From Parcubacteria group bacterium (GTDB lineage Bacteria > Patescibacteriota > Minisyncoccia > JACPHC01), in contig JACPHC010000010.1 in NCBI GenBank assembly GCA_016188775.1, forward strand, positions 31,333 to 95,332: a stretch of DNA of 64,000 bases, written 5' to 3'. Below are positions 1,768 through 61,756 of the stretch, piece after piece. Under the pieces are notes generated by a model. That model was given only the letters and a program-made list of their open reading frames with translations, did no database searches and was not told where the DNA came from. A program made the translations under genes and the position numbers. Position 1 is the first letter of the stretch. Each line of letters begins with the position of its first letter.

Positions 1768-3498
1768 TCAAGTTTTTACAATCAATTTATGGCTGATTTC
1801 CGCCACGCCTTTAATGCCTTTTATTTTTGTCACCAAGGGAGGCAGTTGGCTTTTTTCCCTTAATCTTAAAGTCAGGCAAAGAGGCGAGCCTTTTTCTTTT
1901 GATTCGTTGAAAATATTTTCAATGTTTATTTTTGAAGCCGAGACGACAGAGCTGACCTCCTTAATCAAACCGATTCTGTCTCTTTCAAAAACAATGCGAA
2001 GTTCGGCTCGAGGAATTTTTTCCGCCTCCCATTGGGAAAGTCCGGAAAATTTACTTTGCTTTATAATTTTTCTGATTCGGTTTTTGGCAAAGCTGGTCTG
2101 AACAAATTCAAACCAGTCCGGCGACGGCTTTTTATTTTTTTGAATGACAATTTCAACAACATCCCCGTTTTTTAATTTTGTGTTTAAAGGCGCTATCCGA
2201 TTGTTGATTTTGGCGCCGGCGCAGGCGTCGCCAATTTCGGTGTGAATTTGGTAGGCAAAATCAACCGGCGTTGAGCCTTCCGGTAGATCAATGATTTGGC
2301 CTTTGGGCGTTAAGACGAAAATCCGATCCTGAAAAAAATCAATTTTTAGTCTTTCCAAGAATTCCTCCGGCTTGGAAAATTCTTTTTGCCATTCGGAAAG
2401 TTGTTTGACCCAGGCTAAGTTTTGCTCATCCGTTTCTATTTTTTTCCCCGTTTTGCCGGATTCGGAATAAAGCCAGTGAGCCACGATGCCGTATTCGGCT
2501 TCAGCATGCATTTCTTGGGTGCGGATTTGAAATTCAACGATTTTTTCGTCTTGGCAAAAAACGGTCGTGTGCAGCGAACGATAGCCATTGGGTTTCGGCA
2601 GGGCGATGTAATCTTTAATCCGGCCCGGCAAAGGTTTCCAGATTTTGTGAATCGCGCCCAAGGCGCCGTAGCAGGAAGCGAGGTCGGGCAGTATCAGGCG
2701 AACCGCCACTAAATCGTGCATTAAGTCCAGGTTCATTTCGTGTTTTAAAAGTTTTTGCCAGAGACTGAAATAATGTTTGGCCCGGTAATCAAAACGCAAA
2801 GGCGTTATGTTTTCTTTTTTTAATTCGGCTAAAATTATCGGCGTCACTTTTTCCAAATATTTTTCCCTTTCTTCGTAGCGGTTGCCGACATTAGCCATAA
2901 TCCAGCTATATTCCTCGGGCCATAAATAGCCGAAAGCCAAATCTTCAAGTTTACCTTTAATTTCTCCAATGCCCAACCGGTGCGCTAGCGGGGCGTAGAT
3001 TTCAATGGTTTCTTGGGCGATGCGGCGCCGTTTTCTTTCCGGAACATAATGGAGCGTTTCCATGTTATGAAGTCGATCGGCCAGTTTGATCAGAATAACT
3101 CTGATGTCTTGGGCCATGGCCAAAATCATTTTTCTTAAATTTTCCGCTTCTCGGGCGACGCCGTGATATTTTATTTTTCCGAGTTTAGTCACGCCATTGA
3201 CCAAAAAAACTATATCTTTTCCAAAATGACGCTCAATTTCTTCCTGATCCATCGGATGAGCCGCGTCATCTTCCAGGGTGTCGTGAAGCAGAGAGGCGGC
3301 GATGGTCGCTCCATCAAGCTTGAGGCGGGTTAAAATTTTGGCCGCGGCCAGCGGATGGCCGATGTAGTCTTCGTCGGAATATCTTTTTTGCCCTTGGTGA
3401 GAAATTTTGGCAAATTGAAAAGCTTTCCGAATCATTTCTTCGTCTTGGGGCGATTGATTATATTTTTTAAAATCTTTGATTATTGGTTCTATGTTCAT
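1768..3498 (-). CDS. relA: bifunctional (p)ppGpp synthetase/hydrolase RelA/SpoT family
   Basis: HD hydrolase motif (HPLAAAKIL…LLHDTLEDD); RelA_SpoT synthetase region (RIKDYIALPKPNGYRSLHTTV); TGS/ACT-like C-terminus. Confidence 0.9.
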   Translation of the reverse strand: MNIEPIIKDFKKYNQSPQDEEMIRKAFQFAKISHQGQKRYSDEDYIGHPLAAAKILTRLKLDGATIAASLLHDTLEDDAAHPMDQEEIERHFGKDIVFLVNGVTKLGKIKYHGVAREAENLRKMILAMAQDIRVILIKLADRLHNMETLHYVPERKRRRIAQETIEIYAPLAHRLGIGEIKGKLEDLAFGYLWPEEYSWIMANVGNRYEEREKYLEKVTPIILAELKKENITPLRFDYRAKHYFSLWQKLLKHEMNLDLMHDLVAVRLILPDLASCYGALGAIHKIWKPLPGRIKDYIALPKPNGYRSLHTTVFCQDEKIVEFQIRTQEMHAEAEYGIVAHWLYSESGKTGKKIETDEQNLAWVKQLSEWQKEFSKPEEFLERLKIDFFQDRIFVLTPKGQIIDLPEGSTPVDFAYQIHTEIGDACAGAKINNRIAPLNTKLKNGDVVEIVIQKNKKPSPDWFEFVQTSFAKNRIRKIIKQSKFSGLSQWEAEKIPRAELRIVFERDRIGLIKEVSSVVSASKINIENIFNESKEKGSPLCLTLRLREKSQLPPLVTKIKGIKGVAEISHKLIVKT

Positions 3499-3499
3499 T

Positions 3500-5593
3500 T
3501 TACATTTCCTTAAAATCGCAGGTTTTGTTTGAGCACTTTATTTGATTTCTCAAAGTTTTGACCAAAAGGGAGCCGCATTGGGGACATTTTTGGCCGGTGG
3601 GTTCGTCCCAGAGGGCAAAATCGCATTCCGGATACCTGGAGCAGCCGTAAAAAAATTTTCCTTTTCTGGTCCGTTTTTTAACGATTTCGCCTTTTTCGCA
3701 TTTCAGGCATTTAAGGCCAATGGTATTTTTAATCGGTTTGGCGTTGCGGCATTCCGGAAAGCCGGTGCAAGCCAAAAATTTTCCGAATCGGGACATTTTT
3801 ATCACCATCGGTTTGCCGCATTTTTCGCAAACTTCTTCGGTTTTTTCCTCTATTTTTTCTTTTTTGACTTCCTCATATTTTTCTTCCAGATTTTTTTTGA
3901 AAGGGCCGTAAAAATCATTAAGCAGCGTTTCGTATTTTATTTCGCCTTCGGCGATTTTATCAAGCCCTTCTTCCATTTGGGCCGTAAATTCCAAATCAAC
4001 TATTTTGGGAAAATGTTGGACGAGAATTTTATTGACTAAAATTCCCATTTCGGTCGGAGCCAGTCTTTTTTGATCGTTTTTTTGAACATAGCCGCGTTCT
4101 TGGATAGTGGAAAGAGTCGGAGCGTAAGTGGAGGGGCGGCCAATGCCGTTTTTTTCCAACGTTTTAATCAAAGAAGCTTCGGAATATCGGGCCGGCGGTT
4201 CTGTAAAATGCTGGAGAGGTTTTAATTCAAGAAGTTTGAGTTCGTCTTTTTCTTTGAGTTCGGGCAGAATTATTTCTTCTTTTTTTGACGGGTAAATTTT
4301 TAAAAAGCCGTCGAATTTAATAATGGAACCGCTGGCCCGAAAGATGTGTAATTTTTTATCAACATCGTTTTTGGCCTCGATGTCGTAATGCGTGTTTGAG
4401 AAAACGGCGTCGCTCATTTGCGAGGCGACGAATCTTCTCCAGATGAGGTCATAGACCTTAAACTGGCGGCTGTCCAGATATTTTTGAACTGACTCGGGAG
4501 TTCTGATCGCTTCAGTCGGCCTAATGGCTTCGTGCGCTTCTTGGGCGGTTTTGGATTTGGTTTTGTATAATCTTTTTCGCCAATAATTTTCGCCCATCTC
4601 TTTTTTAATATAAGCTTCGGCCGATTCTTGGGCGGACTCGGCGATATTAAGCGAATCGGTTCTCATATAGGTGATCAGGCCGGTTGTCCCTTCTTCGCCG
4701 ATTTCAACGCCTTCATATAATTGCTGGGCGAGCATCATTGTTTGTTTGGCCGAGAAATGATATTTAGCCCAAGCTTCTTGTTGAAGGGTGCTGGTGGAAA
4801 AAGGCGGCGAGGGTGATTTATTTATTTCTTTTTTTTCAATTTTCGCGATCAGCCAATTCCTATTGGCTAAATTTTTTAAAATGTTTTCCGCCTCGTTTTT
4901 CGTTTTAATCGCGAATTTTTCCAAAACCTTATCGTCAATCTTGATCAGCAAAGCCTCAATCGTTATCTCGTCTTTTTTCGGTTTTAATAAAGCGGCGATC
5001 GTCCAGTATTCTTCCGGTTGGAAATTTTTAATTTCTTCTTCCCGTTCGACAATTAGCCGAACAGCGACAGATTGGACTCGGCCGGCTGACAAGCCTTTAG
5101 CCACCTTTTTCCATAAAAACGGAGAAAGCTCGTAGCCGACCAGGCGATCTAAAATTCTCCGGCCTTGCTGAGCGTTAACTAGATTCATATCAATTTCGCG
5201 AGAATGCTTTAGGGCGTTTTCAATGGCCGATTTGGTGATTTCATGAAAAACAATTCTTTCTATCGTTTTTTCTTTTTCTTTTTTCGTTTTGACCTCATCA
5301 AGGCCTAAGGCTTTGGCCAGGTGCCAGGCGATAGCTTCTCCTTCCCGGTCTTCGTCAGTGGCCAGAATAATATTTTCCGATTCTTCCGCCGCTTCTTTGA
5401 GTTCTTTAACGTGTTTTTTCGCTTTGGCGGGAATGATATATTTGGGAATAAAATTATGCTCGACATCCACGCCGATTTTACTTTTGGGCAGATCCCGGAC
5501 ATGGCCGTAAGAGGATTCAACGCGATAATCTTTCCCTAAAAATCGGGAAATTGTTTTGGCTTTGGTTGGTGATTCAACTATGACGAGTTTCAT
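3500..5593 (-). CDS. topA: DNA topoisomerase I
   Basis: Toprim N-terminus (KLVIVESPTKAKTI…ILATDEDREGEAIAWH); active-site Tyr region (GLITYMRTDS); three C-terminal CxxC zinc ribbons. Confidence 0.9.
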   Translation of the reverse strand: MKLVIVESPTKAKTISRFLGKDYRVESSYGHVRDLPKSKIGVDVEHNFIPKYIIPAKAKKHVKELKEAAEESENIILATDEDREGEAIAWHLAKALGLDEVKTKKEKEKTIERIVFHEITKSAIENALKHSREIDMNLVNAQQGRRILDRLVGYELSPFLWKKVAKGLSAGRVQSVAVRLIVEREEEIKNFQPEEYWTIAALLKPKKDEITIEALLIKIDDKVLEKFAIKTKNEAENILKNLANRNWLIAKIEKKEINKSPSPPFSTSTLQQEAWAKYHFSAKQTMMLAQQLYEGVEIGEEGTTGLITYMRTDSLNIAESAQESAEAYIKKEMGENYWRKRLYKTKSKTAQEAHEAIRPTEAIRTPESVQKYLDSRQFKVYDLIWRRFVASQMSDAVFSNTHYDIEAKNDVDKKLHIFRASGSIIKFDGFLKIYPSKKEEIILPELKEKDELKLLELKPLQHFTEPPARYSEASLIKTLEKNGIGRPSTYAPTLSTIQERGYVQKNDQKRLAPTEMGILVNKILVQHFPKIVDLEFTAQMEEGLDKIAEGEIKYETLLNDFYGPFKKNLEEKYEEVKKEKIEEKTEEVCEKCGKPMVIKMSRFGKFLACTGFPECRNAKPIKNTIGLKCLKCEKGEIVKKRTRKGKFFYGCSRYPECDFALWDEPTGQKCPQCGSLLVKTLRNQIKCSNKTCDFKEM

Positions 5594-5882: not shown

Positions 5883-6731
5883 TTAGCCCATTTTAATCAG
5901 CGAATTCGGACCGATTGAATTTTCGGAAAAGATTGAGCCGGGTACGGCAAAAACATCGCGGTTTTGTTCCAGTGCGATGTCGGCCGTAATCAGGGCTCCG
6001 CTTTTGGCCTTAGCTTCAACGACAATTACGCCCTTGGAAAGACCGGAGATAATTCGATTCCTTAAAGGAAAATTTTGCGGCCAAGCTCCGGTGCCCAGAG
6101 GAAATTCCGAGATTAAAGCGCCGTTTTTGGCGATTTTTTTGGCCAGTTTTAAATTTTCTTTGGGATAAAGGTGAGCCTCGTCAAGGCCGGAACCCAAAAC
6201 CGCGATTGTCCGGCCGCCCGCCGACAGAGCGGCTTCATGAGCCGAGGCATCAATGCCCAAGGCCAAGCCGCTTACGATTGTCAGTCCGGCTTCAGCTAGT
6301 TTTTCGCTTAATTTTCGAGCGGTAGTGTCGCCGTATTGGCTTAAACGTCTGGTGCCGACAATGGCAATGGCCAGTTCGTCTTTTGGGTCCAGATTTCCTT
6401 TTATATACAAGAGAGCCGGCGCTTGGGGAATTTCTTTAAGCCGTAAAGGATAATTTTTATCTTTGATCGTTAAAAGTTCAATTTCTTCATCGGCTAATTT
6501 TTTAAATTCTTTTTCCGGATTTATTTTTTCTCTCTTTTTTTCAAATTGTTCAATTAATTCTTTTGTCTGAAGAGACGTTTCTCCTCTGGCAAAAACCGCT
6601 TCCAATTTTTCTCCGGATCCTTCCCAGGCATTTTTTAAAGATTTAAAATTTTTCATCAATCGGGCGAATCTTTGCGGCCCGAAAAGCCCGGTCAGGCTAA
6701 AAGCGTTAAAATATATTTTTTCCAAATCCAT
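5883..6731 (-). CDS. dprA: DNA processing protein A (Smf), Rossmann-fold body
   Basis: DprA signature LALGIDASAHEAALSAGGRTIAVLGSGLD; ends KMG* roughly 70 aa short of a typical DprA. Confidence 0.8.
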   Translation of the reverse strand: MDLEKIYFNAFSLTGLFGPQRFARLMKNFKSLKNAWEGSGEKLEAVFARGETSLQTKELIEQFEKKREKINPEKEFKKLADEEIELLTIKDKNYPLRLKEIPQAPALLYIKGNLDPKDELAIAIVGTRRLSQYGDTTARKLSEKLAEAGLTIVSGLALGIDASAHEAALSAGGRTIAVLGSGLDEAHLYPKENLKLAKKIAKNGALISEFPLGTGAWPQNFPLRNRIISGLSKGVIVVEAKAKSGALITADIALEQNRDVFAVPGSIFSENSIGPNSLIKMG

Positions 6732-13297: not shown

Positions 13298-14527
13298 ATG
13301 GCGCGGGAAAAAATAATTGTGGGATTGGATATCGGCACTTCAACGATCCAGACGATTGTGGCCAAAAAAAGAAAAGGGACTCGGCCGCAAGTAATCGGAA
13401 TTGGCGAATCGGGCGCCCTGGGAATCAGGCGCGGCGTTGTTGTCAATATCAATGAAGCCATTAAAAGCATTAAAGCGTCGGTTATGCAGGCGGAACGCGC
13501 TTCCGGCGTTCCCGTCTCTCGAGTCTACGTCAGTCTGGGCGGATCTCATATTCAGATCGCTCCTTCCAAAGGAGTGGTGGCGGTTTCTCGGGCCGACGGC
13601 GAAGTGTCGGAAGATGACGTGGATCGAGTGATTCGCGCCGCCGAGTCAATTTCTTTGCCGGCTAATTATGAAATTTTGCATATCATACCGCGCCGTTTTC
13701 GTCTGGACAGCCAAGAAGACATTAAAGATCCCAAAGGCATGACTGGCATTCGGCTTGAAACCGAGGCTTTAGTTGTTGAAGCTTTTACTCCCTCGGTTAA
13801 AAATTTAACCAAGGCCGTGAATGAGGCCGGATTGAAAATAGAAGAGCTGATTTTTTCCAGTTTAGCCGCGGCTGAATCCAGTTTAAGTCAGCAGCAAAAA
13901 GAACTGGGCGTTATCGGCATTGATATCGGCGGCGGCACAACCGGTCTCGTGGTTTACGAAGAAGGAGATCTTTTGCACGCCGGGGTTATTCCCGTTGGAG
14001 GAACGCATTTAACCAATGATGTGGCTATCGGGCTTAGAACTTCCATTGAGACGGCTGAGCGAGTCAAGGTGGCGGCCGGCTACGCGGTGCCGGAAAAAAT
14101 CGGCAAACGCGATTTGATTGATTTAGCTAAATTTTCCAAACACGAAGAAGGCGAGACGCAGAAGCGGTATTTGGCGGAAATCATTGAAGCCCGGCTTTCG
14201 GAAATTTTCGAGCTGGCGAATAAAGAATTAAAAAAGATTAATCGTTTGGGCGAACTGCCCGCCGGAGCGGTTTTGTTGGGCGGCTCGGCTCATTTAAATG
14301 ACATCGCGGAACTCGCTAAAAAACGATTGAAACTGCCGGTAATCACCGGTCGGCCAATAGAACTTGACGGATTAGGCGATCGCCTGTCCAAACCGGAATA
14401 CGCTACGGCTGTTGGTTTGATTTTAATCGCTTCCAAGCACCTTGAGAATGAAGAAAACGGTTTTCCTTTCCGAAAAGCTCCTCCAATCAGCGGATTTTTC
14501 AGATGGCTTAAAAACTTCCTTCCCTAA
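13298..14527 (+). CDS. ftsA: cell division protein FtsA
   Basis: Actin-fold N-terminus IVGLDIGTSTIQTIVA; GIDIGGGTT; ftsZ downstream. Confidence 0.85.
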   Translation: MAREKIIVGLDIGTSTIQTIVAKKRKGTRPQVIGIGESGALGIRRGVVVNINEAIKSIKASVMQAERASGVPVSRVYVSLGGSHIQIAPSKGVVAVSRADGEVSEDDVDRVIRAAESISLPANYEILHIIPRRFRLDSQEDIKDPKGMTGIRLETEALVVEAFTPSVKNLTKAVNEAGLKIEELIFSSLAAAESSLSQQQKELGVIGIDIGGGTTGLVVYEEGDLLHAGVIPVGGTHLTNDVAIGLRTSIETAERVKVAAGYAVPEKIGKRDLIDLAKFSKHEEGETQKRYLAEIIEARLSEIFELANKELKKINRLGELPAGAVLLGGSAHLNDIAELAKKRLKLPVITGRPIELDGLGDRLSKPEYATAVGLILIASKHLENEENGFPFRKAPPISGFFRWLKNFLP

Positions 14528-14572
14528 ATTAATTTTTTGTGCTAAGATTGTTTCGTCCAGAAAAAAATAAAA

Positions 14573-15055
14573 ATGAAGAAAACAAAAATAATAACGGACA
14601 AGAAAGATATTGAAAAACTTCTCGTAAAACAGACTGCGGTAATTTTAAACGCGGTTGATGAGAAAATTTCAAAGCTTGACAAGTCAGTTGATGAGAAAAT
14701 TTCAAAGCTTGACAAGTCAGTTGATGAGAAAATTTCAAAGCTTGACAAGTCAGTTGATGAGAAAATTTCAAAGCTTGACAAGTCAGTTGATGAGAAAATT
14801 TCAAAGCTTGACAAGTCAGTTGATGAGAAAATTTCAAGACTTAGTTTGGAAATAATTAAAAGAGAAGCCCATATGGACGCGCGACTTGGAAAGCTTGAAG
14901 AAAGATTGACTAAAAAAATCGATCAGCTTACTACGGCATTAGATAAGTTTCTCACCCGTCTTACTGGACTCGAGCAAGAATTTATATTTATGAAGGAAGA
15001 TATAAAAAGAATAAAATCAATTTTAAAAGAGAAAATTGGAGTCGATTTAACTTAG
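14573..15055 (+). CDS. hypothetical coiled-coil protein with 11-residue tandem repeats (VDEKISKLDKS x5, then a diverged copy), lying between ftsA and ftsZ
   Basis: 160-aa ORF; five perfect 33-bp DNA repeats encode a perfect hendecad repeat; C-terminal heptad-like region (LGKLEERLTKKIDQLTTALDKFLTRLTGLEQE). Confidence 0.55.
   Translation: MKKTKIITDKKDIEKLLVKQTAVILNAVDEKISKLDKSVDEKISKLDKSVDEKISKLDKSVDEKISKLDKSVDEKISKLDKSVDEKISRLSLEIIKREAHMDARLGKLEERLTKKIDQLTTALDKFLTRLTGLEQEFIFMKEDIKRIKSILKEKIGVDLT
14654..14851 (+). repeat. 33-bp direct tandem repeat, 5 perfect units plus 1 diverged unit
   Basis: gttgatgagaaaatttcaaagcttgacaagtca repeated head-to-tail with no spacers, so not CRISPR; lies inside the 14573..15055 CDS. 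Confidence 0.95.
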
Positions 15056-15070
15056 GCTTATTTAATTATG

Positions 15071-15210
15071 CCCAGTAGTGAAATTTCGATAGATTTTTTT
15101 TCTGTCATTTGATTATCACTCTCTACTTGGCAAAATATATTTATTATTAACAATTCCGACTTCTTGTCTTAAGAAATCTTAATGACAGAATCGAAATTCT
15201 ACTACTGGGT
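15071..15210. repeat. family B ~140-bp inverted-repeat element copy 1, ending exactly at the ftsZ ATG
   Basis: cccagtagtgaaatttcgat…atcgaaattctactactggg terminal inverted repeats plus inner tctgtcat/atgacaga pairing; ~93% identical copy at 51255-51394. Confidence 0.8.
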
Positions 15211-16374
15211 ATGCCTCGCATTAAACCAAGCATCGAAACATTTGCCAAAATTAAAGTCATTGGCATTGGCGGTTCCGGCTCTAACGCGGTTGACCATATG
15301 ATTGAGCGGCGAATTCAAGGCGTGGAATTTATCGCCATCAACACCGACGCGCAGGATTTGCATCATTCCCGGGCGCCGATTAAAATTCATATCGGGAAAA
15401 ATTTGACCCATGGCTTGGGCGCGGGAATGAATCCCGAAGTCGGCGAAAAAGCGGCTGAAGAAAGCAAGGAGGAAATCCAGGAAGCTTTAAAGGGCGCGGA
15501 CATGATTTTTATCGCCGGCGGTTTTGGCGGCGGCACTTGTTCCGGGGCCTCCCCCGTGGTGGCGGAAATCGCCGATGGCACCGGCGCTTTAGTCGTGGCG
15601 GTCATTACCCGTCCTTTTAGTTTTGAAGGCGCTCACAGAACTCGGATTGCCGATGAAGCTTTTGGCCGGATTGAAAGCCGAGTGGACACTTTAATCAGAA
15701 TCAGCAATGACAAACTTTTATCTTTAATTGACAAAAAAACTCCTCTTTTGAGCGCTTTCAATATTGTCGATGAAGTTTTGCTTCAGGCGGTGCAGGGAAT
15801 TTCCGATATCATCACTTTGCCCGGCATTGTTAATGTGGATTTTGCCGATGTCAAGGCGATTATGGGTCAAGGCGGAGCCTCTCTTTTGGGCATTGGCAAG
15901 GCCTCGGGCCAAGAGCGGGCGATAGAAGCGGCTCGAGCCGCCATGCATTCTCCTCTTTTAGATATTTCCATTGACGGGGCCAAAGGGCTTTTGTTTAACG
16001 TCAGCGGCGGCCCGGATTTGGCTATGTATGAAATCAATGACGCGGCAAAATTGATTACCGAATCAATAGATAAAGACGCCAAAGTTATTTTCGGCGCGGT
16101 TGAGGACGCTCGCCTTAAAAAAGGCGAAATTAAAATCACGATTATTGCCACTGGTTTTGATGATAAACCTTCCAATACCGACGGTGAATTAGGGAAAAAT
16201 GTTTCCAATAAGCCGTTAATTAAGACTGTCGGAGCGGTGGAAAGTTTTTTTGCCAGGGAAAGCAAAGAGGACAAAAATGATAAGAAATCTGAAAATAACG
16301 TTAAGATTGAAGAGAAAAAAAAAGAAGAATCCGACGAGTGGGATATTCCGGCCTTTTTAAGGAGAAAGAAATAA
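15211..16374 (+). CDS. ftsZ: cell division GTPase FtsZ
   Basis: IKVIGIGGSGSNAV; tubulin signature GGGTCSGASPVVAEIA; acidic C-terminal tail. Confidence 0.92.
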   Translation: MPRIKPSIETFAKIKVIGIGGSGSNAVDHMIERRIQGVEFIAINTDAQDLHHSRAPIKIHIGKNLTHGLGAGMNPEVGEKAAEESKEEIQEALKGADMIFIAGGFGGGTCSGASPVVAEIADGTGALVVAVITRPFSFEGAHRTRIADEAFGRIESRVDTLIRISNDKLLSLIDKKTPLLSAFNIVDEVLLQAVQGISDIITLPGIVNVDFADVKAIMGQGGASLLGIGKASGQERAIEAARAAMHSPLLDISIDGAKGLLFNVSGGPDLAMYEINDAAKLITESIDKDAKVIFGAVEDARLKKGEIKITIIATGFDDKPSNTDGELGKNVSNKPLIKTVGAVESFFARESKEDKNDKKSENNVKIEEKKKEESDEWDIPAFLRRKK

Positions 16375-36234: not shown

Positions 36235-36341
36235 CATTATGATGTTAAAATCGTCGATTATTAAAATTTTTTTATATTAAATTTAAATTAAAATTAAATT
36301 TTTCTAGATTCTAATTTTTAGTTTCTAGATTCTAATTTTTT

Positions 36342-46552: not shown

Positions 46553-46710
46553 TAACCTTTTCTACTCCAATGATAATTTTTCGGCTACAAACAACTCACC
46601 GCTCGTCAATGAATACGTTGCGTTCACTTCCTCGCGTTTCGTTGTTTTCGCTCGAAAAATTATCATTTCGCTACGAAAAATTATTAAGCAGTGGGTCTAA
46701 ATAAAAACAT

Positions 46711-50512: not shown

Positions 50513-51262
50513 ATGAAACCATATTTATCAATTATTATTCCGGCTTATTACGAAGAGCATCGGATTGAAAAAACGCTTCGCGAGTCGGATAAATATCTGC
50601 GATCTCAAAAATACGATTACGAAATTTTAGTCGTTAACGACGGTTCAAAAGACAAAACCGCTGATGTCGTGAAAAGGCTTGTTTCGGAAATCGCGAATTT
50701 AAGATTGATTGACAATAAAATCAATCAAGGCAAGGGTAGCGTGGTTAGGCAAGGAATGCTGGAGGCTCAAGGCCAGTTTCGGCTTTTTATGGACGCGGAT
50801 AATTCAGTTTCTTTAGATCAGGTCGCGAATTTTTTTCCTCGTCTTTGCGGCGCCAAAAACGCCGGTTCGGAATGTTTTGATATTGTTATTGGCTCGATTG
50901 AGGTGGAGGGCGCTAAAATCGAAGAGCAGTCCCAGTGGTATCGGAGAGCTTTGGGGAGATTTTCCAAATATTTAATCAGATTGATTTCCGGCCTTCGGGA
51001 GATTCACGATTCCCAGCGGGGTTTTAAAATTTTTTCGGAAAAGGCCGCTTTGCGAATATTTCCCAAACAGACAATCGCGCGCTGGGGTTTTGATATTGAA
51101 ATTTTGCTTATTGCCAAGCGTCAAGGATTTAAAATCAAAGAGGTGCCGGTGGTTTGGATTAATCCGCCGGAATCCAAAGTGACTTTAAAGGCTTATATTA
51201 AAACTTTCGGCGAGCTTTTGAAAATCAAATGGAATGATATAAGAGGAAGATATGCCCAGTAG
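50513..51262 (+). CDS. family 2 glycosyltransferase (dolichyl/polyprenyl-phosphate glycosyltransferase-like)
   Basis: LSIIIPAYYEE…VVNDGSKDKT…DAD: GT-A fold motifs. Confidence 0.8.
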   Translation: MKPYLSIIIPAYYEEHRIEKTLRESDKYLRSQKYDYEILVVNDGSKDKTADVVKRLVSEIANLRLIDNKINQGKGSVVRQGMLEAQGQFRLFMDADNSVSLDQVANFFPRLCGAKNAGSECFDIVIGSIEVEGAKIEEQSQWYRRALGRFSKYLIRLISGLREIHDSQRGFKIFSEKAALRIFPKQTIARWGFDIEILLIAKRQGFKIKEVPVVWINPPESKVTLKAYIKTFGELLKIKWNDIRGRYAQ

Positions 51263-51394
51263 TGAAATTTCGATAGATTTCTTTTCTGTCATCTGATTAT
51301 TACTCTCTACTTGGCAAAGTATATTTATTATTAACAATTCCGACTTCTTGTCTTAAGAAATCTTAATGACAGAATCGAAATTCTACTACTGAGT
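51255..51394. repeat. family B inverted-repeat element copy 2, ending at the galT ATG
   Basis: cccagtagtgaaatttcgat … atcgaaattctactactgagt. Confidence 0.8.
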
Positions 51395-52411
51395 ATGTCC
51401 GGTAAAAATCAAATTCAAAAATCCGTTTCCGAATTACGGCAAGATTTGGTTTCCGGCGATTGGGTGGTTATTGCCACCGGTCGGGCCAAAAGGCCGAATT
51501 TTTTTAAAGAAAAAAAGATTATGCCGGATCAACCGGTCCAAGCTTGCCCTTTTGAAAATCCGCAAAAATCAACTCACGGCGACCCTTTCTATGTTAGTCC
51601 GAATTTAAAAAATTGGTGGGTGCAGGTGGTTGGCAATAAATATCCGGCTTTTGGCCCGGGCAATTGCCTTATTTTGACTAAAAACGGGCCGTATTCTCAA
51701 ATAGACGGAGCCGGTTTTCACGAATTAGTGATTACTCGCGATCACAAAAGAAGCATTGCCGAAATGTCGGCTAAAGAAGTGGAAGCGATAATTTTAGCCT
51801 ATAAAAATCGTTATTCAGAACATTCCAAAAGCGAATGCGTGGAATATATTTCTATTTTTCACAATCACGGCCCGGCGGCCGGCGCTTCCATTTCCCATCC
51901 CCATTCGCAAATTATCGCTATTCCGGTCGTGCCGCCTGACGTGGGTCGGTCATTGAACGGTTCGGCCGATTATTTTAAAAAAAATAAAAAGCGCGTTCAT
52001 GACGTGATGCTGGATTTTGAAATGAAAGAGCAAACGAGAATCGTTTACGAAAATAAAGATTTTGTTTCGCTTTGCCCTTTTGTTTCCCGCTCCATTTTTG
52101 AAGTTCGGATTTTTCCCAAAAAACACAATCCTTATTTTGAAGATATAAAAACCGAAGAAGTTAAAACTTTAGCCGATATTTTACAAAAAACGCTAAGCAA
52201 GATTTTTAAGGGATTAAATAATCCTTCTTATAATTTTTTTATTCATACCAGTCCGACCAAGGATCGGGAATTTTACGATCATTATCATTGGCATATTGAA
52301 ATTTTGCCTCGGGCTTCGGTTTGGGGCGGAGTGGAGTTGGGCATTGGCATTGAAATTTTAACCGTTTTGCCCGAAGACGCGGCCGAATACTTGCGCGGCA
52401 TAAAAATATAG
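51395..52411 (+). CDS. galT: galactose-1-phosphate uridylyltransferase family (HIT superfamily)
   Basis: …CPFENPQ…ISHPHSQIIAIPVVP: HxHxQ nucleotidyl-transfer motif. Confidence 0.7.
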   Translation: MSGKNQIQKSVSELRQDLVSGDWVVIATGRAKRPNFFKEKKIMPDQPVQACPFENPQKSTHGDPFYVSPNLKNWWVQVVGNKYPAFGPGNCLILTKNGPYSQIDGAGFHELVITRDHKRSIAEMSAKEVEAIILAYKNRYSEHSKSECVEYISIFHNHGPAAGASISHPHSQIIAIPVVPPDVGRSLNGSADYFKKNKKRVHDVMLDFEMKEQTRIVYENKDFVSLCPFVSRSIFEVRIFPKKHNPYFEDIKTEEVKTLADILQKTLSKIFKGLNNPSYNFFIHTSPTKDREFYDHYHWHIEILPRASVWGGVELGIGIEILTVLPEDAAEYLRGIKI

Positions 52412-52502
52412 ACTTTTTTCAAAATAATTTTTCAGAAATAAATCGCTTCGGAAACGGATTTTTAAAATCGCCATAGCCATGAGATCGTACAAAAATTCAA
52501 TC

Positions 52503-52638
52503 ATTTGTCATTGCGAGAAGCGAAGAGACGAAGCAATCTCATTTGTCATTGCGAGGAGGAATGAAGCGACGAAGCAATCTCTAAAATCAGCCAAGAAATG
52601 AGATTTCTTCGGCGATTCCATCGCCTCGCAATGACGAT
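52503..52638. repeat. family F: two direct ~40-bp repeats (TTTGTCATTGCGAG…GCGAAGCAATCTC) plus an inverted partial copy
   Basis: Units 52503-52540 and 52541-52581 abut; cctcgcaatgacgat at 52624-52638 is the reverse complement of the unit start; a related unit lies at 18768-18808; no spacers, so not CRISPR. Confidence 0.7.
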
Positions 52639-61441: not shown

Positions 61442-61756
61442 ATGGGAAAAATCAATTTAAAAGAATTAATCATTATTTTACTTTTAACTTCGTTTATTCT
61501 TTTTGTCGGCGTAGCCATTGGCTTGTCTGTTGGTTGGATCCAGGGCGATGCGATAGGATTGAAAGAAGGAATAGCTAAAGGTTTTGAACAGGGAAAATTG
61601 GAAGGCCAGGCGATTTTGCGCGCCGAGTTAAAGGCCGAGGCGGAAAAAGCGGCGGCCGAAGCGGCTAATCCTTTTAAAGAAACAACCGTTAATCCTTTTG
61701 AAAAAGCTATTACTAATCCTTTTGAAAATATCAAATTAAATCCCTTTGACCGGTAG
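61442..61756 (+). CDS. small membrane-anchored protein with 4x NPF(E/K/D) C-terminal repeats
   Basis: N-terminal TM helix; Ala/Glu-rich helix; NPFKE, NPFEK, NPFEN, NPFD repeats. Confidence 0.45.
   Translation: MGKINLKELIIILLLTSFILFVGVAIGLSVGWIQGDAIGLKEGIAKGFEQGKLEGQAILRAELKAEAEKAAAEAANPFKETTVNPFEKAITNPFENIKLNPFDR

What the first reader, a model, noticed from the sequence alone, without database searches (positions are those of the whole stretch)
14573..15055. Tandem-repeat coiled-coil protein inserted between ftsA and ftsZ with five perfect 33-bp repeats
A 160-aa ORF between ftsA and ftsZ encodes VDEKISKLDKS five times perfectly, plus a sixth diverged copy; the 33-bp DNA units are identical. 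Perfect nucleotide identity implies very recent expansion, or ongoing slipped-strand length variation. An 11-residue (hendecad) periodicity is typical of amphipathic, membrane- or filament-binding helices. Given its position it could be a lineage-specific divisome accessory (a ZapA/ZapB/SepF-like role), possibly one whose length varies between cells or strains. It could also be an assembly collapse or expansion artefact.
Basis: seen in the sequence. Interest (0 to 1): 0.65.

Follow-up and report, generated by a model that had tools for sequence, protein, structure and literature searches.

The report
Repeat-lengthened coiled-coil gene between ftsA and ftsZ
The ORF is a real gene from a widespread but unnamed family of single-helix coiled-coil proteins of Patescibacteria; in this lineage it landed between ftsA and ftsZ and was lengthened by five perfect 11-residue repeats, and nothing ties the family to cell division.

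Summary
ORF 14573-15055 (160 aa) lies between ftsA and ftsZ and holds a 33-bp unit repeated 5.6 times at 100% identity (14654-14837).

The ORF is not an orphan. It belongs to an unannotated Patescibacteria family (at least 866 clusters), typically 88-120 aa. Members have a conserved N motif (LLxxQTxVILxAVDEK), a fixed 38-residue C module (LDKFLKRLTDxEDEF...EKLGVxL) and a variable middle. AlphaFold2 predicts one continuous helix.

The repeated unit is the family's own motif, amplified. This gives the longest spacer among 241 members examined.

Other members carry independent 21-bp or 33-bp in-frame expansions. Two otherwise identical contigs differ by exactly one 21-bp unit, so length variation is a family trait.

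Family genes sit at unrelated sites and never beside ftsA or ftsZ. They usually have their own near-consensus promoter, which this copy lacks.

The closest relative (FtsA and FtsZ 79% identical) has ftsA, 102 bp, then ftsZ. The ORF plus a 145-bp palindromic repeat element is therefore a 666-bp lineage-specific insertion.

A dedicated divisome role is unsupported. The exact copy number is unverified, because a short-read contig breaks at the array.

The parts
13298..14527 (+). ftsA (409 aa), with an intact C-terminal amphipathic helix (GFFRWLKNFLP)
   Evidence: Pfam FtsA 2.2e-37 and SHS2_FTSA 1.8e-26. An identical protein is annotated as FtsA of a 'Parcubacteria group bacterium' MAG (P0267).
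14545..15210 (+). 666-bp lineage-specific insertion into the ftsA-ftsZ spacer. It holds the ORF with its short leader and a palindromic element.
   Evidence: DNA homology to the closest relative L174 ends at window 14544 and resumes at 15211. L174 has 102 bp between the ftsA stop and the ftsZ ATG; 85 bp of it (3217-3301) lies outside the aligned stretches. GC is 0.33 for the ORF and 0.30 for the element, against 0.49 and 0.47 in ftsA and ftsZ.
14542..14550 (+). TGcTAAGAT, a possible extended -10 box. It may be a remnant of the family-typical promoter; no -35 box is present.
   Evidence: The best sigma-70 match upstream of this ORF is only 7/12, whereas 60 of 69 family genes reach 10/12 or better, several with TAAGAT as the -10 box. 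This is a consensus match only; that it is a promoter is inference.
14573..15055 (+). ORF, 160 aa: a single-helix coiled-coil protein of an unannotated Patescibacteria family
   Evidence: Homologues P0001-P0009 at E 1e-15 to 1e-11. Family profile: 160 clusters at E<=1e-10 and 866 at E<=1e-5. AF2 gives a helix over residues 10-155, pLDDT 92.
14606..14671 (+). Conserved N-terminal family motif (DIEKLLVKQTAVILNAVDEKIS, residues 12-33)
   Evidence: Invariant columns L17 Q20 T21 I24 V28 D29 E30 K31 I32 in alignment A1; the same motif appears in A3.
14654..14837 (+). Perfect tandem array, 33 bp x 5.6 (VDEKISKLDKS x5 plus a partial copy). It amplifies the end of the family N motif and adds 55 residues.
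   Evidence: TRF 100% matches. Hydrophobic period 3.67. The spacer of 103 residues is the longest of 241 members and equals the common class 48 plus 5x11.
14918..15052 (+). Conserved C-terminal family module (IDQLTTALDKFLTRLTGLEQEFIFMKEDIKRIKSILKEKIGVDLT, residues 116-160)
   Evidence: Invariant columns D117 L119 T121 L123 D124 F126 L127 R129 E134 E136 F137 K148 E153 K154. The tail from the L of LDKF to the C-terminus is 38 residues in 187 of 241 members.
15068..15212 (.). 145-bp palindromic, MITE-like repeat element filling the ORF-ftsZ gap. Its 3' arm ends in the ftsZ ATG.
   Evidence: Inverted arms I1 and I2. RNA fold -44.1 kcal/mol, z = -6.2. A second copy at 51251-51397 is 96.6% identical. 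The element is absent from the relative L174.
15211..16374 (+). ftsZ (387 aa), with an intact C-terminal peptide (DIPAFLRRKK)
   Evidence: Pfam Tubulin 3e-44 and FtsZ_C 9e-31.
51251..51397 (.). Second copy of the palindromic element, between a GT2 glycosyltransferase gene and a GalT/HIT-like gene. It again ends at the downstream ATG.

Best explanation
The ORF is a functional member of an uncharacterised, Patescibacteria-wide family of small cytoplasmic proteins. Each member is one long alpha-helix that most likely homo-oligomerises into a coiled-coil rod. The family has two conserved ends and a central spacer, and spacer length varies only in whole helical turns. I infer that the ends are the interaction modules: the N motif LLxxQTxVILxAVDEK and a fixed 38-residue C module, LDKFLKRLTDxEDEF...EKLGVxL. 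New length alleles arise by replication slippage or unequal recombination of 21-bp (heptad) or 33-bp (hendecad) units, which keeps both reading frame and helical phase. In this lineage a family gene was inserted into the ftsA-ftsZ spacer, probably as a cassette that lost its own -35 box. A 145-bp palindromic repeat element also inserted there. The gene then expanded its own VDEKISKLDKS motif to five perfect copies. This lengthens the predicted rod by 55 residues (my arithmetic: about 8 nm, from roughly 14 to 22 nm). The position between ftsA and ftsZ is an accident of insertion, not evidence of a divisome function. Its main consequence is probably co-transcription with ftsA and ftsZ.
For: Shown:
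- Family membership and conserved motifs.
- Single-helix prediction for both the 160-aa protein and a 92-aa member.
- Hydrophobic period 3.67 in the repeat and 3.54 in the C module.
- Spacer lengths cluster at 30, 33/34, 37, 41, 44/45, 48, 51/52, 55/56 and 58/59, and the window value of 103 is the maximum of 241.
- Independent expansions in homologues: L146 33 bp x4.2 at 100%, L091 21 bp x6.1 at 93%, L098 21 bp x4.1. L106 differs from L098 by one unit over an otherwise identical 1000 bp.
- Variable genomic contexts with no ftsA or ftsZ.
- 60 of 69 family genes have a promoter matching the consensus at 10/12 or better, against 10% of control genes; the window copy scores 7/12.
- The closest relative has ftsA, 102 bp, then ftsZ, with homology breaking at 14544 and resuming at 15211.
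- 41 further Patescibacteria have ftsA-ftsZ gaps of about 355 bp or less.
- The ORF has low GC3 (0.32, against 0.49 for the flanking genes).

Inferred: oligomerisation, the role of the ends, the slippage mechanism, promoter truncation and co-transcription.
Against: - No experiment or annotation gives any function for the family.
- Oligomeric state was not modelled, because the tool folds single chains only.
- Copy number is unverified: a short-read contig breaks at the array.
- A few family loci do lie near cell-envelope or division genes: L121 downstream of mraZ-rsmH-ftsL-ftsI, L110 and L148 beside Mur ligases. A loose link to division is therefore not excluded.
- Only one relative closer than about 56% FtsA identity was available.
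Confidence: 0.6

Rival explanations
1. Lineage-specific divisome accessory. The rod has been recruited as a ZapB/EzrA-like FtsZ- or FtsA-associated spacer whose length is tuned by the repeat number.
For: It is co-oriented with ftsA and ftsZ and sits only 45 nt after the ftsA stop. It lacks the family's own promoter, so it is probably co-expressed with them. There is a weak sub-threshold coiled-coil similarity to EzrA (E 1.3e-4, 20.9 bits against a cutoff of 39.6). A few homologues lie near dcw or mur genes.
Against: No match to the ZapA, ZapB, SepF, DivIVA or GpsB models. The EzrA hit is generic coiled coil, and there is no TM anchor. The family is never next to ftsA or ftsZ in 85 loci. The closest relative and 41 others lack any ORF at this position.
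Confidence: 0.12
2. The gene is real, but the length of the repeat array is an assembly product. The true copy number differs, or is heterogeneous in the population.
For: The array is 184 bp of perfect 33-bp periodicity, longer than typical short reads or k-mers. The independent Logan contig stops about one unit into the array. The exact 160-aa product is not on record in the collection that the look-up of encoding contigs looks up.
Against: Perfect multi-copy arrays also occur in other family members from other assemblies (L146, 137 bp at 100%). Shorter arrays that a read can span differ between samples (88 bp against 67 bp in L098 and L106), so real expansion does happen in this family. The contig break itself requires at least 2 copies.
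Confidence: 0.3
3. Decaying passenger: a displaced family copy that lost its promoter and is drifting, so the runaway repeat expansion marks relaxed constraint.
For: The family-typical promoter is lost. The spacer is the most extreme of 241. Composition is atypical. The gene lies inside a spacer that also took up a repeat element.
Against: The ORF is intact, all invariant family residues are kept, and the expansion is in frame and in helical phase. Only 64 kb of the genome was seen, so it is unknown whether another copy exists.
Confidence: 0.1
4. Contingency-type variable protein involved in host, phage or partner interaction, where length variation is selected for diversification, as in the Borrelia Bdr proteins or surface coiled coils.
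For: Recurrent, independent, polymorphic in-frame repeats occur across the family. Patescibacteria are thought to be episymbionts (my own knowledge, not tested here).
Against: The sequences show no signal peptide, TM segment or anchor. There are no hits in viral contigs. Only coiled-coil-level hits to defence models such as the ZorA tail were found. The ends are strongly conserved rather than diversifying.
Confidence: 0.08

Closest known systems
Borrelia Bdr (Borrelia direct repeat) proteins
   Same: Both are small bacterial proteins of unknown function whose central tandem repeats differ in number between near-identical strains. bdrT has about 9 repeats in B31 and about 6 in the 99.4%-identical N40 orthologue (PMC3303823). 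Both occur in reduced genomes.
   Different: No sequence relationship was detected. Bdr genes are multi-copy on plasmids or prophages. From my own knowledge, not checked here, Bdr proteins carry a C-terminal membrane anchor. The present family appears chromosomal and mostly single-copy per locus, and has no hydrophobic tail.
ZapB / EzrA / DivIVA-type coiled-coil division proteins
   Same: They are small or repetitive cytoplasmic coiled coils, and the window copy lies in the ftsA-ftsZ operon region.
   Different: No model match above threshold: EzrA scores 20.9 bits against a cutoff of 39.6, and ZapA, ZapB and SepF are absent from the lists. There is no TM anchor (EzrA) and no lipid-binding N domain (DivIVA). 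The family shows no synteny with division genes.
ZorA cytoplasmic tail (Zorya anti-phage system)
   Same: It is a long coiled-coil segment, and the best PADLOC hits align to it (E 6e-7).
   Different: The similarity is at coiled-coil level only. There is no MotA/ExbB membrane domain, no zorB-D neighbours, and no link to defence islands.
Baculovirus P10 / PEP_C-type coiled-coil regions (PF05531, PF04513)
   Same: These are the best Pfam similarities (1.3e-7, 32 bits). They share a pattern resembling '..ILxAVxxxxxKVDxL..'.
   Different: The score is below the gathering threshold (38 bits), and typical family members score far lower. I judge these to be compositional, coiled-coil matches.

Membership tests
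Unannotated Patescibacteria single-helix coiled-coil family (defined here; no Pfam or NCBIfam model) | N-terminal motif LLxxQTxVILxAVDEK | tested here: met
   Residues 16-31 are LLVKQTAVILNAVDEK, and these columns are invariant in A1. The profile score is 132 bits.
Unannotated Patescibacteria single-helix coiled-coil family (defined here; no Pfam or NCBIfam model) | C-terminal module LDKFLKRLTDxEDEF..MKxDxxRxKxVxxEKLGVxL, ending the protein 38 residues after the L of LDKF | tested here: met
   The window has LDKFLTRLTGLEQEFIFMKEDIKRIKSILKEKIGVDLT with a 38-residue tail, as in 187 of 241 members.
Unannotated Patescibacteria single-helix coiled-coil family (defined here; no Pfam or NCBIfam model) | Whole protein predicted as one continuous helix | tested here: met
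   AF2: helix 10-155, pLDDT 92. A 92-aa member gives helix 3-87, pLDDT 93.
Unannotated Patescibacteria single-helix coiled-coil family (defined here; no Pfam or NCBIfam model) | Stand-alone gene with its own near-consensus sigma-70 promoter (TTGACA-16/17-TAnnnT), often leaderless | tested here: not met
   60 of 69 members reach 10/12 or better. The window copy scores 7/12, with only a TGcTAAGAT box and ftsA ending 45 nt upstream. This is a feature of the locus, not of the protein.
ZapB (PF06005), ZapA (PF05164), SepF (PF04472) | Significant match to the family HMM | tested here: not met
   None of these appears among the Pfam hits for the ORF (the 25 best of 40 at E<=1 are listed; the last shown has E 0.2). 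None appears for five typical members at E<=0.01.
EzrA (PF06160 / NF003409) | HMM score above the curated cutoff, N-terminal TM anchor, protein of about 560 aa with spectrin-like repeats | tested here: not met
   20.9 bits against a 39.6 cutoff, and 18.4 against 562. The protein is 160 aa and has no hydrophobic segment.
Conserved divisome accessory by synteny (gene kept between or next to ftsA and ftsZ) | Orthologue at the same position in relatives, or family members linked to ftsA or ftsZ | tested here: not met
   L174 (79% identical) has no ORF there. Of 44 loci with ftsA followed by ftsZ, 0 carry a family ORF. Of 85 family loci, 0 carry ftsA or ftsZ.
Leucine-rich repeat / internalin | LRR fold and an LxxLxLxxN consensus | tested here: not met
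   The InlJ hits (E 4.5e-5 against PDB sequences; 21 bits against a 1700 cutoff) are period-11/22 coincidences. AF2 gives an all-helical model with pLDDT 98 in the repeat.
Borrelia Bdr family | Sequence homology to Bdr, and a C-terminal membrane anchor | not tested
   I ran no search aimed at Bdr, and no Bdr match appeared in the hit lists I examined. The resemblance is functional (repeat-number polymorphism; PMC3303823). The window protein ends in EKIGVDLT, with no hydrophobic tail.
Phage or defence-associated gene | Presence on viral contigs, or a significant PHROG or PADLOC match | tested here: not met
   No relatives in IMG/VR. PHROG hits have E>=2.7e-4 to families of unknown function. PADLOC hits align only to the ZorA coiled-coil tail.

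The most novel reading that the evidence does not exclude
The family is an abundant, length-tunable cytoskeletal 'ruler' or adaptor of Patescibacteria. Its rod length would be adjusted in 1.0-nm or 1.6-nm quanta by slippage of heptad or hendecad repeats. In this lineage it would have been captured into the ftsA-ftsZ operon, giving a divisome-associated spacer about 8 nm longer than usual whose length varies between cells or strains.
Probability: 0.08. Interest if true: 0.7.

Novelty: new variant of a known kind. Interest (0 to 1): 0.4.

Why it matters
Patescibacteria (CPR) make up a large share of bacterial diversity, and most of their small proteins are unnamed. This finding brings out a family of at least 866 sequence clusters with unusually clear properties. 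Each member is a single helix with two conserved ends. Spacer lengths are quantised in whole helical turns. The genes carry near-consensus, often leaderless promoters, which suggests high expression. In-frame heptad or hendecad expansions recur and are polymorphic between otherwise identical contigs. That makes the family a natural system for studying how coiled-coil length evolves, and a candidate major structural protein of these ultra-small cells. For genome annotation, the case shows that position between ftsA and ftsZ is not evidence of a division function. Here the position reflects a 666-bp insertion that the nearest relative lacks.

Tried and rejected
- Known-family searches found only sub-threshold coiled-coil matches. 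I searched Pfam, NCBIfam, PHROGs and PADLOC, PDB sequences by profile, and PDB structures with Foldseek. The hits were Baculo_PEP_C, apolipoprotein, EzrA, ZorA tail and internalin-J LRR. Foldseek on a single helix is uninformative (best E = 4).
- LRR reading of the 11/22-residue period: rejected, because the AF2 model is helical.
- Viral origin: no relatives among 2.9 M viral contigs.
- Structured RNA: no Rfam family in the window or at the locus.
- Other small ORFs downstream of ftsA as hidden homologues. The 105-aa coiled-coil ORF in L007 is not related (hhalign probability 1.1%). L036 gives only a marginal hit (E 0.003).
- Conserved neighbours of the family: none. NUDIX is the commonest, in 8 of 136 neighbours.
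- Other copies of the ORF or of the repeat unit in the window: none.
- Exact-protein look-ups of the ORF and of FtsZ: not on record.
- Papers on the family: none found. Two Bdr papers are not held in the library.

Full report
**1. The observation**

The window holds ftsA (13298-14527) and ftsZ (15211-16374). Both have strong Pfam support and intact C-terminal membrane- or partner-binding peptides. Between them lies ORF 14573-15055 (+, 160 aa). Tandem Repeats Finder reports a 33-bp unit repeated 5.6 times at 14654-14837, with 100% matches and no indels (same register). The protein reads VDEKISKLDKS five times, followed by VDEKISRLSLE. It is by far the strongest tandem array in the 64-kb window.

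**2. The ORF belongs to a real, large, unnamed family**

A search of 5.8 billion proteins found 88-111-aa homologues at E 1e-15 to 1e-11. These align to the N- and C-terminal parts of the ORF and lack only the repeat block.

- A profile search of 1.84 billion cluster representatives gave 421 clusters at E<=1e-3 and 160 at E<=1e-10.
- A 40-sequence profile gave 866 clusters at E<=1e-5.
- The few taxon-bearing names come from Patescibacteria MAGs (Nealson-, Staskawicz- and Wildermuthbacteria) and read 'hypothetical protein'. A few JGI names are functional labels that look spurious.

The family has three parts. The first is a conserved N motif, LLxxQTxVILxAVDEK. The second is a variable middle. 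The third is a C module, LDKFLKRLTDxEDEF..MKxDxxRxKxVxxEKLGVxL, that ends the protein exactly 38 residues after the L of LDKF in 187 of 241 non-redundant members.

No Pfam, NCBIfam, PHROG, PADLOC or PDB family reaches threshold. The hits are generic coiled-coil matches.

**3. Structure**

AlphaFold2 predicts one uninterrupted helix for the window protein (residues 10-155, pLDDT 92). It predicts the same for a 92-aa member (residues 3-87, pLDDT 93).

The hydrophobic periodicity is 3.67 in the repeat, a true hendecad with V, I and L at positions a, e and h. It is 3.54, heptad-like, in the C module.

Across 241 members, the distance from the N-motif Q to the C-motif L clusters at 30, 33/34, 37, 41, 44/45, 48, 51/52, 55/56 and 58/59. 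These steps correspond to whole helical turns, which is what a continuous coiled-coil seam between two conserved ends would produce. The window value of 103 is the largest seen (next are 88 and 79). It equals the common class 48 plus 5x11.

From this I infer a homo-oligomeric rod whose ends are the functional modules and whose middle is a spacer. The expansion adds 55 residues, or about 8 nm by my arithmetic. Oligomeric state could not be modelled with the tools available.

**4. Repeat expansion is a family habit**

TRF on the family genes from 85 loci finds independent arrays in the same central or N-proximal region:

- L146: 33 bp x4.2 at 100%, with a different unit, DQTKQIEQRLS.
- L086: 33 bp x4.3 at 74%.
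- L091: 21 bp x6.1 at 93%.
- L098 and L100: 21 bp x4.1 at 98%.
- L104, L117 and L164: older 21-bp arrays.

L098 and L106 come from different assemblies. They are identical over 1000 bp except for one 21-bp unit (4 copies against 3). These arrays are 88 and 67 bp long and can be spanned by single reads, so this is probably real polymorphism.

Units are almost always 21 or 33 bp, so both reading frame and helical phase are kept. Repeat-number change therefore gives length alleles, not on/off switching.

**5. Genomic context: no link to division**

Family genes sit at unrelated places:

- among small ORFs near rpsP, khpA, rnc and trmD;
- next to tig-clpP, dnaE-thrS, uppS and a GNAT-NUDIX pair;
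- next to uvrB, secA, maf, Mur ligases and hsp20.

None of 85 family loci contains ftsA or ftsZ. A Pfam scan of 136 neighbours from 67 non-redundant loci gave 140 different families. The commonest was NUDIX, in 8 of 136 neighbours, and no divisome family is among the 25 most frequent listed. A few loci lie near dcw or mur genes (L121, L110, L148). I regard this as within chance.

A family hallmark is an own near-consensus sigma-70 promoter. 60 of 69 non-redundant genes match at 10/12 or better within 90 nt, against 10% of 305 control genes from the same contigs. In about 21 cases the -10 box ends 6-9 nt before the ATG, which suggests leaderless mRNA. The window copy lacks this promoter (7/12). 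It keeps only TGcTAAGAT at 14542-14550, and ftsA ends 45 nt upstream of the start codon.

**6. The ORF is a lineage-specific insertion**

The window comes from an NCBI 'Parcubacteria group bacterium' MAG contig of 126 kb (P0267).

In 80 GTDB Patescibacteria loci found with FtsA (identity up to 52%), ftsZ follows ftsA in 44. The gap is about 355 bp or less in 41 of them, and no family ORF occurs. Three loci have unrelated or no ORFs in larger gaps.

The closest relative available is L174, with FtsA and FtsZ both 79% identical and the same S21-yqeY-ybeY-ftsA-ftsZ order. It has ftsA, 102 bp, then ftsZ. DNA homology to the window stops at 14544 and resumes exactly at the ftsZ ATG at 15211.

So 14545-15210 (666 bp) is an insertion. 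It consists of the ORF with a 28-nt leader, 12 nt, and a 145-bp palindromic element. The inserted DNA is AT-rich: the ORF has GC3 of 0.32, against 0.49 in ftsA and ftsZ and a window mean of 0.42 +/- 0.05. Because TAAGAT lies at the very left edge of the insertion, I suspect the cassette arrived with its -35 box cut off. This is inference.

**7. The palindromic element**

Positions 15068-15212 fold into a long hairpin (-44 kcal/mol, z = -6.2) whose 3' arm includes the ftsZ start codon. A second copy, 96.6% identical, lies at 51251-51397 between a GT2 glycosyltransferase gene and a GalT/HIT-like gene.

Both copies are bracketed by ATG...ATG, and both end at the start codon of the downstream gene. 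The empty site in L174 has a single ATG. This looks like a MITE-type element with a 3-bp target duplication. It also contains promoter-like hexamers. It is independent of the ORF.

**8. Assembly caveat**

A Logan short-read contig (SRR12113424, seen in 3 samples) has the identical ftsA, the identical ORF start and the first repeat unit. It ends about one unit into the array. This confirms the insertion and shows at least two copies in independent reads. It also shows that short-read graphs cannot resolve the array. The exact 160-aa product is not on record in the look-up collection. The figure of 5.6 copies therefore rests on the source assembly alone.

**9. Verdict**

The protein is a coiled coil with genuine hendecad repeats, and length variation by repeat slippage is well supported at family level.

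The proposed divisome role is not supported. The gene is a displaced member of a stand-alone, probably highly expressed family of unknown function, and it landed in the ftsA-ftsZ spacer after divergence from the nearest known relative.

The most likely mechanism is a homo-oligomeric rod with conserved interaction ends and a slippage-tuned spacer (confidence about 0.6 overall). Confidence is much higher for family membership and for the insertion. It is lower for the functional model.

The closest functional analogue is the Borrelia Bdr family, whose central repeats also differ in number between near-identical strains and whose function is also unknown (PMC3303823). It is not a homologue.

Noticed in passing
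window 15068-15212 and 51251-51397: A 145-bp palindromic, MITE-like element is present twice at 96.6% identity. Each copy is bracketed by ATG...ATG and ends exactly at the start codon of the downstream gene (ftsZ, and a GalT/HIT-like gene). At the second copy the upstream GT2 gene's TAG stop lies inside the element's 5' arm. The RNA fold has z = -6.2 and would sequester the ftsZ AUG. The element carries promoter-like hexamers. It is absent from the empty site in relative L174.
   Followed up: partly
L098:6001-6330 and L100 versus L106:456-764: Contigs from different assemblies are identical over 1000 bp except for one 21-bp repeat unit in the family gene (FDGVDEK x4 against x3). This is direct evidence of repeat-number polymorphism in the family.
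   Followed up: yes
L146:5945-6333: Another family member carries a perfect 33-bp x4.2 array with a different unit (DQTKQIEQRLS), placed before the QT motif. It lies directly downstream of an Hsp20-like gene and upstream of what looks like a tRNA gene (my reading of the sequence; ARAGORN was not run).
   Followed up: partly
upstream 90 nt of family genes in L001-L005 and L086-L172: 60 of 69 family genes have a near-consensus TTGACA-16/17-TAnnnT promoter, against 10% of neighbouring genes. In about 21 of them the -10 box ends 6-9 nt before the ATG, which suggests leaderless and highly expressed transcripts.
   Followed up: yes
L001:5879-5950; L003:1303-1400; L005:1-25 and 425-525: A recurring hairpin element (CATAGCGGCGAG...CTCGCCGCTATG-like arms) flanks the family gene in three related contigs, on both sides in L005. 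It may be a dispersed repeat marking the variable small-gene islands where these copies sit.
   Followed up: no
L174:816-1429: The closest relative carries its own small insertion, a MazE-Fic toxin-antitoxin pair between yqeY and ybeY. This pair is absent from the window. The conserved S21-yqeY-ybeY-ftsA-ftsZ block therefore takes up different small cassettes in different lineages.
   Followed up: no
L007-L039 (Doudnabacteria-like loci): In 36 of 80 Patescibacteria loci no ftsZ lies within the sequence held downstream of ftsA (up to 4 kb). Unrelated genes follow ftsA instead, for example an ArsR-like HTH gene, membrane proteins, and an unrelated 105-aa coiled-coil ORF in L007.
   Followed up: partly
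L019: ORF starting about 235 nt after the end of the ftsA match (4001-5248); exact coordinates not recorded; near the contig end: A 57-aa ORF downstream of ftsA consists of tandem 9-residue repeats (ATKKDLESF / ATKKDLSGF). It is another repeat-rich small ORF next to ftsA and is unrelated to the family studied here.
   Followed up: no
L114:2171-2389: A 72-aa ORF shares the N-terminal 'KKxITIDELAVM..GFD' motif with one subfamily (P0047, P0060, L098). It lies on the same contig as a canonical family gene (5923-6240), near ftsK and recA. It may be a paralogue.
   Followed up: no
window 52501-52581; 36301-36340; 46646-46684; 61691-61749: Other short tandem repeats occur in the window: 41 bp x2, 21 bp x1.9 (twice) and 24 bp x2.5. 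None is comparable to the 33-bp array.
   Followed up: no
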